DNA of 64,000 bases, from NCBI RefSeq assembly GCF_057098645.1, contig NZ_CM169472.1; one strand, 5' to 3'. Every line of letters starts with the position of its first letter. The first letter of the stretch is position 1. Made by a program: the position numbers. This document shows positions 52,323-55,300 of the stretch, one piece after another.

Positions 52323-55300
52323 TAATGCTTTGCGGGCCGACGAGAAATGTCGGCCCGCATTATTCAGGCACTTTCGCGAATGGGTTCGATTTCATTCAGC
52401 GTATCAATTAACGGTTGCGGCTTACCAATAAGATAACCCTGCATATAATCGATCCCCAAAGAGAGCACTGCCTCGCGGATCTCTTCGTTTTCAACGTACT
52501 CTGCCACTACCAGCATTTTCTTCATTCGCGCCAGGTGGCAAATCGACGCCACTATCTGATAATCCAGACTATTTGACACAATATTGCGGATAAAACTGCC
52601 GTCAATTTTAAGCAGATCGGCATTCACATTTTTAAGCCGCGCATAGCTGGCGTAGCCGGTGCCGAAATCATCAATCGCAATCTGGCAGCCTAATTCCTGA
52701 AGATGCTGCAAGGTGATTTGCGCCTGCTTAACATTGGTCAGAGCATTACTTTCGGTGACTTCAAAAATAAGTTGCCACGCTTCAATCTGATATTTAGCCA
52801 GCAACTGACTGACTTCAACAGGAAAACGAGCCTGACATACCGAGGTTGGAGACAGATTAATAGCAAAACGGTGAGCGGGCATCTTCGCTCTGTTTTCAGC
52901 CATAAATTGCAGCGTATGCTCAATGACCCACATGTCGATACTCGACGATAAACCAAATTCGTGCGCGACCGGCAAGAAGCTATCGGGGCTGATCAGTTCA
53001 TCATTCTCACCTTTCATGCGCAGAAGAATTTCATGGTAAACATCACCACGCATACCGGTAATCGGCTGGGCCATCAGGAAAAAATGGTTGTGTTCCAGCG
53101 CCTGCTGTAGTCGATTCATCATCGCGACTTTATCTTTCAATTCGCGTTGCAAATACATTGCCCCGCGACGCTGCATATTTTCCGGGGCGTTGGTCACGAT
53201 GGAAAGTTCGGCGACCGTATTTAGCTCTCCCAGCAGCAGGTAGATATGATTCACTGGCGAGCGCACATAGCAGTAACTGACGCCAATCTGCGGTTGCATC
53301 GGCATGCCATCCCAAAAGAAACGAAATTGCTTGAGATGGCTATCCAGTGCGGTAATACGCTCCTGGTGCGATTCTGTATTCAGTCGCAGCGCGAGATCGT
53401 TACCCGAAAGCTGATAAACATCTTCACCCGGTTCCAGCAAGGGTGACAGCCAGTGAGAAAGTTTTTGCTTGTATTGAATCCGCAGCATGATGCCATAGTT
53501 TTTAACCAGCATTTCCATGCCAGGGATGCGTAAATAACAAAGCGCAGACCAGGGGGCATCACGCAACGCGCGATTCAGGGCGCGAACATTTGGCAGATGA
53601 ACCACCGGGTCCACATACGCAAGCCGCTGAATGCGTCTGACTACCGTTCTCTGACGGGTTGCCAGTACAGCCATATAATTGACAATAAAAGAGAATACCA
53701 GATAACTGGAGGAGGTTATGGTCAGCTGCGTGGTATAGCCAGGATAAATGGGAATGTAATTTTGATAGCTGTGGATGCTGATCATCAACACGACCGCCCA
53801 GAGCAGTGAAATCAGCTTATAACCATAGCGCATCGCTCCCCACATCATCAGGGGCAGCAATAATGACAAGGTATAATTGGTGCTAAAAATTGTGCTTTTT
53901 TCATTTAACGGCATGCATAACAGCAACAGTAAAGCACCTAATGCCAGTAGCCAGAGTGCGAACTCTTTTTTGGTGACTTTGACATCAACCTGCTGTTTTA
54001 ATTGCGAATAATAACTACGTAAATAAAACGGATTTCGAACTACCCGAATGATGAAGTAGCACAGCGGGACACCAATCAGATTGCCCACCAGTAAGGCCTG
54101 ATAATTGATTAAGGTTCCCAGATTAAAGGGCATGACACCAACCAGATTTGTTCTGCTCGCCAGTAAACCTACAAACGCCGCAAACTGGAAGAGCACCAGA
54201 AACAACGTTGCAGGGAAAACAATCTGCCAAAAAATGCGCTGGGAAATTAAGCGGGTATCACCATGTGAAACGTTGTTACGCCGGGGGGTAAACACCCTAT
54301 AGCCCCCCCAACAAAGAATGATAATGATAATGAAATTAACCGTTAACGAGATCGTTTCATAAAAACCAAGTTCGGCATACTTGCGAACAAAAATCCCTAA
54401 AGCAATACCTGGCAATGCTGCCCAGCTAAAAAACATCATCATGCTGATCATCAGTGCCAAAGGCAGATAAAAGAGAAAAACCTCACCGGAAGAAATATGC
54501 GCGAAAGTATTAATGTGGGCGAAAATGGGCAAGATTAAAGAAGGCAGGAACAGCGGAAGCCCCCACCATTTATCACGTATTTTTATATAAGTTGCATTCA
54601 GTTTCATAGATGCTCAGCAGAATCCCCCACATCCTGAAGGAGGTGTATTCAGACAGGCATCCCACCTGACTTCGAATGATGATTATTCATCACTATAGAG
54701 AGCATTGATTCTAAGTGTCATATGAAAGTTCCAATTGATATATATCAAACAAAATAACCCTGATTAATGAATTATTACGTTTATCATGTTAATTCATCAT
54801 TATTACATCATCATTGTAAATAATTAAATTAACTTCCATAACATTAAAATATGTATCCACTGACGCTTTTTTACATAACGAAGAATTGACCATTTTGTCC
54901 TGTTGTGCCTTAATGTAAGTACCGTCCACGGCGTGGGACATACTTCAAGGAACCTTTTGTGAGTCAGGCAACCAGTATGCGAAAACGACACCGATTTAAC
55001 AGTCGCATGACCCGTATCGTACTGCTCATCAGCTTTATCTTCTTCTTTGGCCGTTTTATCTACTCGTCCGTCGGTGCCTGGCAGCACCATCAGAGCAAAA
55101 AAAAAGCTCAGCAATCCACACTCTCCGTCGAATCACCGGTACAACGTTAGCGGTTACCTTCTCCACTTTCACAGAACATAACGGCACTTCGCTGTCGGAT
55201 GCTTTTGCTCTTTGGGATTATCAAAGCGGCAGATATTCTTTCATCTTAAATTTTACGTCTTTGTCCTGACTGATGTTTATCCTGTTTGGCTGCAAAATAA

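What the first reader, a model, noticed from the sequence alone, without database searches (positions are those of the whole stretch)
54735..54748. Perfect FNR-type palindrome in the pdeF upstream region
ttgatatatatcaa is an exact TTGAT-N4-ATCAA site in the AT-rich divergent pdeF/yfgG intergenic region, about 130 bp upstream of the pdeF start. It agrees with the reported anaerobic induction of yfgF/pdeF and could also influence yfgG on the other strand.
Basis: partly seen in the sequence, partly recalled or inferred. Interest (0 to 1): 0.3.

Follow-up and report, generated by a model that had tools for sequence, protein, structure and literature searches.

The report
Known FNR site of pdeF promoter
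This is the already published binding site where the oxygen-sensing regulator FNR switches on the c-di-GMP phosphodiesterase gene pdeF (yfgF) in E. coli without oxygen; it is real and conserved, but not new.

Summary
TTGATATATATCAA is at window 54735-54748 and is the only exact TTGAT-N4-ATCAA match in the 64 kb. It lies in the 351-bp, 34.5% GC spacer between pdeF (minus strand, ATG at 54607) and yfgG (plus strand, GTG at 54959). Its centre is 134.5 nt from the pdeF ATG.

The site is already published as the FNR box at -41.5 of the class II FNR-dependent yfgF/pdeF promoter, with -10 element TAGAAT (Lacey et al. 2010, restated in PMC3718329). Myers et al. 2013 list the identical 14-mer as a predicted FNR site under an FNR ChIP-seq peak.

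My own comparison agrees. All 14 orthologous upstream regions (four named genera and one unclassified isolate) carry a box with 0-1 mismatches, then exactly 21 nt, then TA[G/A]AAT, while the spacer sequence has diverged. The box region is identical in 5364 of 5426 complete E. coli genomes.

The suggestion that the site also acts on yfgG has no support. yfgG has its own conserved promoter, with a start about 180 nt from the box centre.

FNR's effect on pdeF appears conditional, because H-NS/StpA dampens both occupancy and anaerobic induction.

Verdict: observation confirmed, interpretation supported, already known, low interest. In passing, the pdeF leader contains a near-invariant block that remains unexplained.

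The parts
54735..54748 (.). FNR box TTGATATATATCAA. It is a perfect 14-bp palindrome that serves the minus-strand pdeF promoter, spanning -48 to -35 if +1 is 54700.
   Evidence: sequence, unique in the window. (published as the yfgF FNR box; the identical 14-mer lies under an FNR ChIP-seq peak in K-12). (conserved in 14 of 14 orthologous regions; 0.91 between-genus identity at the 10 specified positions against 0.42 in the central N4). (35 nt including the box identical in 5364 of 5426 E. coli genomes).
54714..54734 (-). 21-nt spacer between the box and the -10 element. Its length is invariant and its sequence is not conserved. TTGGAA at -34..-29 is a poor -35, only 15 nt from the -10.
   Evidence: exactly 21 nt in all 15 sequences. 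(between-genus identity 0.40). The window differs from K-12 here by one SNP at 54731.
54708..54713 (-). -10 hexamer TAGAAT of the FNR-dependent pdeF promoter.
   Evidence: Read from the sequence. Named as the -10 element in PMC3718329. It is TAGAAT or TAAAAT in all orthologues, with identity 0.94.
54699..54703 (-). Inferred pdeF transcription start. 54700 gives the published -41.5; the -10 geometry allows 54700-54703, that is, a box centre at -38.5 to -41.5.
   Evidence: Inferred from the published -41.5 and the position of the -10 element. The start was not mapped here.
54608..54700 (-). pdeF 5' leader of about 93 nt. It contains a near-invariant block (54648-54670), a second GGA-loop hairpin (54624-54643) and the invariant GAGCAUCU just before the AUG (54608-54615).
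52364..54607 (-). pdeF (yfgF) coding sequence, the MASE1-GGDEF-EAL c-di-GMP phosphodiesterase. It is the regulated gene.
   Evidence: ORF. (RefSeq annotation of matching genomes).
54886..54922 (+). Context only, not part of the FNR module. This is the divergent yfgG promoter: -35 TTGACC 54886-54891, -10 CTTAAT/TTAATG 54909-54915, start at about 54922.
   Evidence: TSS 2627275 in U00096.2, which maps to window 54922, inside an RNA polymerase-sigma-S ChIP-seq region. (TTGACC-17-CTTAAT predicted by Shimada 2014). (both elements 100% identical across genera).

Best explanation
The palindrome is the FNR operator of the class II, FNR-activated promoter of pdeF (yfgF).

Established FNR biology, not tested here: without oxygen, FNR holds a [4Fe-4S] cluster, dimerises and binds TTGAT-N4-ATCAA. 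Oxygen destroys the cluster, the dimer falls apart and activation stops.

At this promoter the box is centred about 41.5 bp upstream of the start. It therefore overlaps the position of the missing -35 element, where bound FNR can contact sigma-70 and the alpha subunits of RNA polymerase. Polymerase is recruited to the TAGAAT -10 element 21 bp downstream, and transcription starts near window 54700. The transcript carries a leader of about 93 nt followed by pdeF. The outcome is more c-di-GMP phosphodiesterase under anaerobic or micro-aerobic conditions.

Activation is conditional. H-NS/StpA on this AT-rich spacer lowers FNR occupancy and masks the anaerobic induction in glucose minimal medium.

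Shown, by the literature or measured here: the sequence, its position, its conservation, in vivo FNR occupancy in K-12, and FNR/anaerobic dependence of yfgF expression as reported. Inferred: the exact start in this strain, and the protein contacts, which follow from the general class II model.
For: 1. The sequence is a perfect consensus match, unique in the window.
2. PMC3718329 describes an FNR box at -41.5 and a -10 TAGAAT at the E. coli yfgF promoter. [quoted passage not shown] A RegulonDB curation paper lists FNR-yfgF, activator, anaerobiosis.
3. Myers 2013 lists an FNR ChIP peak at yfgF/yfgG (Table S5). Table S6 gives TTGATATATATCAA at 2627088, PatSer score 16.08, marked '+' for a ChIP-seq peak. 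Table S9 assigns the target as yfgF. K-12 is identical to the window at the box and the -10.
4. The geometry fits: box, then 21 nt, then TAGAAT, which puts the centre at -38.5 to -41.5. Myers reports 19 of 23 FNR-activated promoters within 4 nt of -41.5.
5. Phylogenetic footprint: all 14 orthologous pdeF upstream regions (Escherichia spp., Enterobacter, Phytobacter, Kluyvera and an unclassified isolate) have a box with 0-1 mismatches, then exactly 21 nt, then TA[G/A]AAT. Between-genus identity is 0.91 at the specified box positions and 0.94 at the -10, against 0.42 in the N4 and 0.40 in the spacer. The chance of a box with at most 1 mismatch in 420 nt is about 0.03 per genome.
6. The 35 nt including the box are identical in 5364 of 5426 complete E. 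coli genomes.
7. H-NS modulation: the FNR ChIP-chip signal rises from 0.35 to 1.68 in the hns stpA mutant (Table S7). yfgF shows 4.3-fold anaerobic induction only in that mutant (Table S11). Shimada 2014 flags the spacer as H-NS-bound.
Against: - In Myers et al., wild-type cells in glucose minimal medium showed no FNR-dependent change in yfgF expression despite the ChIP peak (Table S9).
- yfgF is also absent from their wild-type aerobic/anaerobic list (Table S12).
- The held supplements of the Fnr ChIP-exo study (Federowicz 2014) do not mention yfgF.
- I could not read the primary paper (Lacey 2010). The -41.5 position and the FNR dependence therefore rest on the same laboratory's later restatement, and I do not know how the start was determined.
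- The base at 54700 on the transcribed strand is a C, an unusual start nucleotide, so the true start may differ by 1-3 nt.
- A second, activator-independent promoter (ATGACA-18-TATAGT, 54721..54692) has been predicted. It could contribute transcripts that do not depend on FNR.
Confidence: 0.93

Rival explanations
1. Bidirectional use. The same FNR dimer also regulates the divergent yfgG gene, either from a second, unmapped yfgG start about 41 bp on the other side of the box or by remote or topological effects.
For: The box is a perfect palindrome in a divergent spacer. In E. coli the mirror-image position (21 nt from the box) reads AATTAT, a 4 of 6 match to TATAAT. yfgG is 2.2-fold higher anaerobically in wild type (Myers Table S12, value 0.453). 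The box-to-yfgG distance is roughly conserved, at about 204-210 nt.
Against: The mapped yfgG start (window 54922) puts the box centre at -180.5, far outside known FNR activation positions. yfgG has its own fully conserved -35 and -10 elements. Myers assigned the peak to yfgF, and yfgG does not appear in their table of FNR-dependent operons, Table S8. The mirrored hexamer is not conserved: it is TTTCGG in Enterobacter and shifts in the other genera. A 4 of 6 match is expected by chance in DNA of about 26% GC.
Confidence: 0.1
2. FNR acts here mainly as a conditional anti-silencer. The box is occupied, but its main role is to compete with H-NS/StpA on the AT-rich spacer, so induction appears only when silencing is relieved (stationary phase, lower temperature, hns mutants). 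This refines the class II model rather than excluding it.
For: FNR ChIP-chip occupancy rises from 0.35 to 1.68 in hns stpA. Anaerobic induction of yfgF (4.3-fold) is detected only in hns stpA. There is no FNR-dependent change in wild-type minimal medium. The spacer is flagged as H-NS-bound. The 200 bp around the box are about 25-26% GC. From my memory of the Lacey 2010 abstract, not checked here, expression is highest in stationary phase and at 28 C.
Against: Myers Table S6 reports no H-NS, IHF or Fis enrichment overlapping the site itself. The exact 21-nt spacing to the -10 is conserved across genera. That argues for direct contact with RNA polymerase rather than mere displacement of a silencer.
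Confidence: 0.25
3. The match is a silent or chance consensus site with no regulatory role.
For: Perfect or near-perfect FNR boxes without a ChIP signal do exist. Only 63 of the 187 sites predicted in K-12 have a ChIP-seq peak, and at least five perfect boxes are unbound. Roughly four to five perfect boxes per 4.6-Mb genome are expected from base composition alone (my own estimate).
Against: This site has a ChIP-seq peak. It sits at class II distance from a -10 element. It is conserved in every orthologue examined, in the pattern expected of a protein-binding site: specified bases conserved, N4 and spacer free to vary.
Confidence: 0.02
4. The site is used by another CRP/FNR-family regulator, such as CRP, rather than FNR.
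For: CRP and FNR recognise related inverted repeats. Many promoters in c-di-GMP networks respond to CRP (general knowledge, not checked here).
Against: The half-sites are TTGAT/ATCAA, the FNR consensus. They are not TGTGA/TCACA with 6-nt spacing. FNR occupancy is reported.
Confidence: 0.02

Closest known systems
The yfgF (pdeF) class II FNR-dependent promoter of E. coli K-12 (Lacey, Partridge and Green 2010, Microbiology 156:2873; restated in PMC3718329; FNR ChIP-seq in Myers et al. 2013, PMC3688515)
   Same: It is the same locus and the same element. The 14-mer, the TAGAAT -10 and the spacing are identical between the window and K-12. The published K-12 position 2627088 maps to window 54735.
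   Different: The only differences are strain-level: one spacer SNP at 54731 (T here, A in K-12) and one SNP in the yfgG leader at 54932. Neither touches the box or the -10.
Salmonella Enteritidis yfgF promoter (PMC3718329)
   Same: It has the same architecture: an FNR box at -41.5 and a -10 element.
   Different: The box has one mismatch (TTGAC--ATCAA) and the -10 is TACAAT. The TTGAC variant also occurs in most Kluyvera orthologues and in the unclassified isolate, where the -10 is TAAAAT.
Canonical class II FNR-activated promoters (narG, dmsA, nirB, nrfA, ydfZ, yfiD)
   Same: The box is centred within 4 nt of -41.5, there is no good -35, and activation is anaerobic. The PatSer score of 16.08 is among the higher scores of bound sites.
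   Different: Those operons show strong FNR-dependent expression in glucose minimal medium. yfgF did not in wild type, only in hns stpA. No co-regulator such as NarL, NarP or IHF is known here (Table S9 lists 'Unknown').
Silent predicted FNR sites masked by nucleoid proteins (Myers et al. 2013)
   Same: The setting is AT-rich, and both occupancy and expression are sensitive to H-NS/StpA.
   Different: This site is not silent. It has a ChIP-seq peak in wild type.

Membership tests
FNR binding site (E. coli FNR operator) | Inverted repeat matching TTGAT-N4-ATCAA | tested here: met
   10 of 10 specified positions match at 54735-54748.
FNR binding site (E. coli FNR operator) | Occupied by FNR in vivo under anaerobiosis | tested here: met
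   This is a literature look-up, not a new experiment. Myers 2013 Tables S5 and S6 list the identical 14-mer at K-12 2627088 with an FNR ChIP-seq peak. K-12 and the window are identical at the site. Occupancy in the window's own strain is inferred.
FNR binding site (E. coli FNR operator) | Conserved in orthologous regulatory regions, with conservation confined to the contacted bases | tested here: met
   All 14 orthologous regions have a box with 0-1 mismatches. Identity is 0.91 at the specified positions against 0.42 in the N4. The 35 nt including the box are identical in 5364 of 5426 E. coli genomes.
Class II FNR-activated promoter | Box centred at about -41.5 (within 4 nt) from the transcription start | tested here: met
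   Published as -41.5. The sequence shows box, then 21 nt, then TAGAAT, which puts the centre at -38.5 to -41.5. The 21-nt spacing is invariant in 15 of 15 sequences. The start itself was not mapped here.
Class II FNR-activated promoter | Recognisable -10 element and a weak or absent -35, that is, dependence on an activator | tested here: met
   TAGAAT matches TATAAT at 5 of 6 positions. The best -35-like hexamer, TTGGAA, lies only 15 nt from the -10 (sequence). The generic sigma-70 scan did not call this promoter.
Class II FNR-activated promoter | Expression depends on FNR and on anaerobiosis | not testable with these tools
   Reported by Lacey 2010, as cited. It was not seen in wild-type glucose minimal medium by Myers, but anaerobic induction was seen in hns stpA. 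Reporter assays are needed.
   The yfgG TSS 2627275 (U00096.2) maps to window 54922, which puts the box centre at -180.5. No conserved -10 sits at the mirror-image position.
   yfgG is absent from Myers Table S8, the table of FNR-dependent operons. It appears only in Table S12 (2.2-fold anaerobic). This is a single condition, so it is not conclusive.

The most novel reading that the evidence does not exclude
The FNR box may be only the first layer of a multi-layer switch. The pdeF leader that this promoter produces carries a 23-nt block (54648-54670, GUCAGGUGGGAUGCCUGUCUGAA) that is conserved across four genera about as well as the box's specified positions (0.88 against 0.91 between-genus identity) and far better than the neighbouring leader sequence (0.36). 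The block forms a hairpin with GGA in its loop. A second hairpin follows, with stems that differ between genera and a GGA always in its loop. The block is also complementary to the invariant GCAUCU next to the AUG. It could be an undescribed post-transcriptional control element, either a CsrA-type binding pair or an RBS-sequestering switch. That might explain why FNR occupancy does not translate into output under some conditions.
Probability: 0.15. Interest if true: 0.4.

Novelty: already known. Interest (0 to 1): 0.08.

Why it matters
The site connects oxygen sensing by FNR to c-di-GMP turnover by PdeF, and through that to motility, cell-surface properties and peroxide tolerance in enteric bacteria. 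That connection was published in 2010 and confirmed by ChIP-seq in 2013. For a genome scan, the result is a correct re-identification of a curated regulatory site, not a discovery.

This analysis adds two modest things:
- A cross-genus footprint showing that the box, the 21-nt spacing and the -10 are conserved as a unit in Escherichia, Enterobacter, Phytobacter and Kluyvera.
- Clarification that the neighbouring yfgG gene has its own conserved promoter and no evidence of FNR control.

Tried and rejected
- The primary paper (Lacey 2010) could not be retrieved by DOI or PubMed id. I used the same laboratory's 2013 restatement instead.
- A search for 'pdeF' with 'FNR' found nothing.
- The Fnr ChIP-exo supplements (Federowicz 2014) and the ArcA ChIP supplements (Park 2013) contain no yfgF or yfgG entries. 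They neither add to nor contradict the conclusion.
- The generic sigma-70 scan found only ATGACA-18-TATAGT on the pdeF strand. The same pair was predicted by Shimada 2014. I rejected it as the FNR-dependent promoter for two reasons: the box would then be centred near -56.5, and TATAGT is not conserved outside Escherichia.
- A mirror-image class II promoter for yfgG was rejected as unconserved.
- For the leader block, Rfam gave no hit at E<=1. RNAalifold recovered only the invariant first hairpin, with no covariation. The E. coli leader is not unusually stable (z = -0.36). CsrA CLIP-seq supplements for E. coli and Salmonella do not list yfgF, and my guessed Salmonella locus tag hit shdA instead. 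Those cultures were aerobic, when pdeF is poorly expressed, so the absence is uninformative.
- The genome scan for orthologues did not return Salmonella, Citrobacter or Klebsiella, because the peptide seeds were too E. coli-specific. Salmonella is therefore covered only by the literature.
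Full report
**1. 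The observation.** The sequence ttgatatatatcaa is at window 54735-54748.
- It matches all ten specified positions of TTGAT-N4-ATCAA, and the whole 14-mer is a perfect palindrome.
- It is the only exact match in the 64 kb. Dinucleotide-preserving shuffles give a mean of 0.08 matches, and 8 of 100 shuffles have at least one.
pdeF is a 747-aa ORF on the minus strand (52364..54607), and yfgG is a 63-aa ORF on the plus strand (54959..55150).
- The window is E. coli. An 801-bp query around the site is 99.9% identical to O145 strain RM9872 and is found in 5423 of 5426 complete genomes, annotated as pdeF and yfgG.
- The spacer is 351 bp at 34.5% GC, against 52.1% for the window. The 200 bp around the box are about 25-26% GC.
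- The box centre is 134.5 nt from the pdeF ATG and 217.5 nt from the yfgG GTG.

**2. What it is: published evidence.** PMC3718329, from the laboratory that characterised yfgF, cites Lacey, Partridge and Green 2010. [quoted passage not shown] Enteritidis)'. [quoted passage not shown] A RegulonDB curation paper lists FNR-yfgF as activator under anaerobiosis.

Myers et al. 2013 (PMC3688515) add genome-wide data:
- Table S5 lists an FNR ChIP peak at yfgF/yfgG.
- Table S6 lists the 14-mer TTGATATATATCAA at U00096.2 position 2627088, PatSer score 16.08, marked as lying under an FNR ChIP-seq peak.
- Table S9 assigns the target as yfgF.

I derived the coordinate map from the K-12 record and from a published IS5 insertion position. 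Window coordinate = U00096.3 coordinate - 2,574,331, and U00096.2 = U00096.3 - 1978. This puts 2627088 exactly at window 54735. K-12 and the window are identical at the box and the -10. The spacer differs by only two SNPs, at 54731 and 54932.

I could not obtain the 2010 primary paper.

**3. Independent checks made here.**

*Geometry.* Reading the pdeF strand, the box is followed by 21 nt (TTGGAACTTTCATATGACACT) and then TAGAAT (54713..54708). With +1 at 54700, the box spans -48 to -35 and the hexamer spans -13 to -8. Allowing for uncertainty in the start, the centre lies between -38.5 and -41.5. Myers reports that 19 of 23 FNR-activated promoters with known starts have the site within 4 nt of -41.5. 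There is no usable -35: TTGGAA is only 15 nt from the -10. That fits dependence on an activator.

*Phylogenetic footprint.* A scan of one genome per species returned full-length pdeF orthologues with upstream DNA from five further Escherichia lineages, Enterobacter asburiae, two Phytobacter species, six Kluyvera species or isolates, and an unclassified Enterobacteriaceae isolate.
- All 14 usable upstream regions have a box with 0-1 mismatches, 131-150 nt before the start codon.
- In every case exactly 21 nt follow, and then TAGAAT or TAAAAT.
- Using one sequence per lineage, between-genus pairwise identity is 0.91 at the ten specified box positions. It is 0.42 in the central N4, 0.40 in the 21-nt spacer and 0.94 in the -10, against 0.59 for the spacer region overall.

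This is the pattern expected of a protein-contacted operator held in fixed register with a -10 element. By shuffling, a box with at most 1 mismatch turns up in 420 nt of such DNA about 3% of the time, and a perfect box about 0.06-0.18% of the time.

*Within E. coli.* The 35 nt that include the box are identical in 5364 of 5426 complete genomes. The common polymorphism in the 71-nt promoter region is a single base. In K-12 it is the spacer SNP at 54731, outside the box.

**4. Mechanism.** The best-supported mechanism is standard class II activation.
- Anaerobic [4Fe-4S]-FNR dimer binds the box, which overlaps the -35 position.
- It contacts sigma-70 and the alpha subunits, recruits RNA polymerase to TAGAAT, and starts a transcript with a leader of about 93 nt. 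Oxygen inactivates FNR.
- The protein contacts are inferred from the general class II model, not shown at this promoter.

The regulation is conditional. [quoted passage not shown] In an hns stpA mutant the FNR ChIP-chip signal rose from 0.35 to 1.68 (Table S7), and yfgF became 4.3-fold anaerobically induced (Table S11, ratio 0.23). Shimada 2014 flags the spacer as H-NS-bound. H-NS/StpA therefore dampens this promoter. How much of FNR's role is anti-silencing rather than direct recruitment remains open. The strictly conserved 21-nt spacing argues for direct recruitment.

**5. yfgG.**
- A sigma-S ChIP-seq study lists a yfgG start at 2627275 (U00096.2), which is window 54922.
- Upstream of that start lie TTGACC (54886-54891) and CTTAAT/TTAATG (54909-54915). 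Shimada predicted this same pair, and both elements are 100% identical across genera.
- The FNR box centre is therefore at -180.5 relative to the yfgG start.
- The mirror-image position on the yfgG side has AATTAT in E. coli (4 of 6), but nothing conserved in the other genera.
- yfgG is 2.2-fold higher anaerobically in wild type (Table S12), yet it is absent from the table of FNR-dependent operons. No regulator of yfgG is recorded.

I give the bidirectional idea about 10%.

**6. Comparison with known systems, and novelty.** This is not merely similar to a known system. It is the known element, in a different E. coli strain. All sequence-level defining features of an FNR operator and of a class II FNR promoter are met. 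Expression dependence cannot be tested with these tools and rests on the literature. Novelty: already known. Interest: low.

**7. Things noticed on the way.**
- The pdeF leader contains a block (54648-54670) with 0.88 between-genus identity, while the first 30 nt of the leader have diverged to 0.36.
  - It can form the hairpin CAGG-UGGGAUG-CCUG. A second hairpin follows, whose stems differ between genera (CCUCC/GGGGG, AUACCC/GGGUAU, ACCCA/UGGGU, CCCAC/GUGGG).
  - The loop of each hairpin always contains GGA.
  - The block is also complementary to the invariant GCAUCU next to the AUG, and that pairing appears in 8 of 12 minimum-energy folds.
  - There is no Rfam hit, no covariation that can be tested, no unusual stability, and no entry in aerobic CsrA CLIP-seq tables. 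It remains unexplained.
- A conserved palindrome lies upstream of the yfgG -35. It is ACATTAAAATATGT at 54841-54854 in E. coli, and a perfect 20-bp palindrome, ATAACATTAATTAATGTTAT, in Kluyvera.
- Two independent IS insertions separate the box from its -10. IS1 in strain L73 lies 2 bp from the box, with a 9-bp duplication, GAAAGTACC. IS5 in a gallium-evolved K-12 population lies at CTAA 54711-54714, inside the -10.
- yfgI carries a 7-bp deletion in this strain.
- PGAP annotates a 50-aa ORF inside the spacer that is probably spurious.

Noticed in passing
window 54608-54700 (minus strand); conserved block 54648-54670; hairpin 1 at 54654-54668; hairpin 2 at 54624-54643; RBS block 54605-54615: The pdeF 5' leader contains a 23-nt block (GUCAGGUGGGAUGCCUGUCUGAA) that is nearly invariant across Escherichia, Enterobacter, Phytobacter and Kluyvera, with identity 0.88 against 0.36 for the first 30 nt of the leader. 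Two hairpins each present GGA in the loop. The block is also complementary to the invariant GCAUCU next to the AUG, and it contains a 3-codon mini-ORF (AUG CCU GUC UGA). It could be a CsrA-type site, an RBS-sequestering switch or a DNA operator. There is no Rfam hit and no testable covariation, and it is absent from aerobic CsrA CLIP-seq tables.
   Followed up: partly
window 54841-54854 (and L012/L013 equivalents): A conserved palindrome lies upstream of the yfgG -35, centred at about -74.5 from the yfgG start. It is ACATTAAAATATGT in E. coli and a perfect 20-bp palindrome, ATAACATTAATTAATGTTAT, in Kluyvera. This is probably an operator for an unidentified regulator of the nickel/cobalt-tolerance gene yfgG. 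The ArcA ChIP supplements do not list this spacer.
   Followed up: partly
window 54886-54939: The yfgG promoter (TTGACC-17-CTTAAT) is 100% conserved across genera. It fits the published start (window 54922) inside an RNA polymerase-sigma-S ChIP-seq region. The 37-nt yfgG leader begins with a hairpin, GTCCAC-GGC-GTGGGAC (54924-54939), whose loop carries one of the two SNPs against K-12 (54932).
   Followed up: partly
L003 (E. coli strain L73) about 3044-3820; window equivalent 54732/54733. Also window 54711-54714.: Two independent IS insertions cut the FNR box off from its -10 element. IS1 in natural isolate L73 lies 2 bp to the pdeF side of an intact box, with the 9-bp duplication GAAAGTACC. 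IS5 reached frequency 0.5 in one gallium-evolved K-12 population, at CTAA inside TAGAAT (PMC6928379). Both should abolish FNR-dependent pdeF expression.
   Followed up: partly
window 54692-54721 (minus strand): A sigma-70-like promoter, ATGACA-18-TATAGT, lies just downstream of the FNR-dependent -10. The scan found it, and Shimada 2014 independently predicted it as a 'constitutive' yfgF promoter. TATAGT is not conserved outside Escherichia. It could give FNR-independent basal transcription.
   Followed up: partly
window 54789-54941 (minus strand): RefSeq/PGAP annotates a 50-aa 'hypothetical protein' inside the AT-rich spacer, overlapping the yfgG promoter. It is not annotated in K-12. The corresponding region in other genera has frame-breaking indels in alignment A2, so it is probably a spurious call.
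   Followed up: partly
window 55995-56521: yfgI (DUF5384) is disrupted in this strain. A 7-bp deletion (AGGATCA, after about 56061) relative to strain L73 splits it into two overlapping ORFs. The near-identical O145 RM9872 genome annotates it as a frameshifted pseudogene.
   Followed up: yes
window 54543-54567 (minus strand): A terminator-like hairpin followed by a T-rich run lies inside the first 65 nt of the pdeF coding sequence. It is probably a chance match (1 found against 0.3 expected in shuffles) and was not examined further.
   Followed up: no
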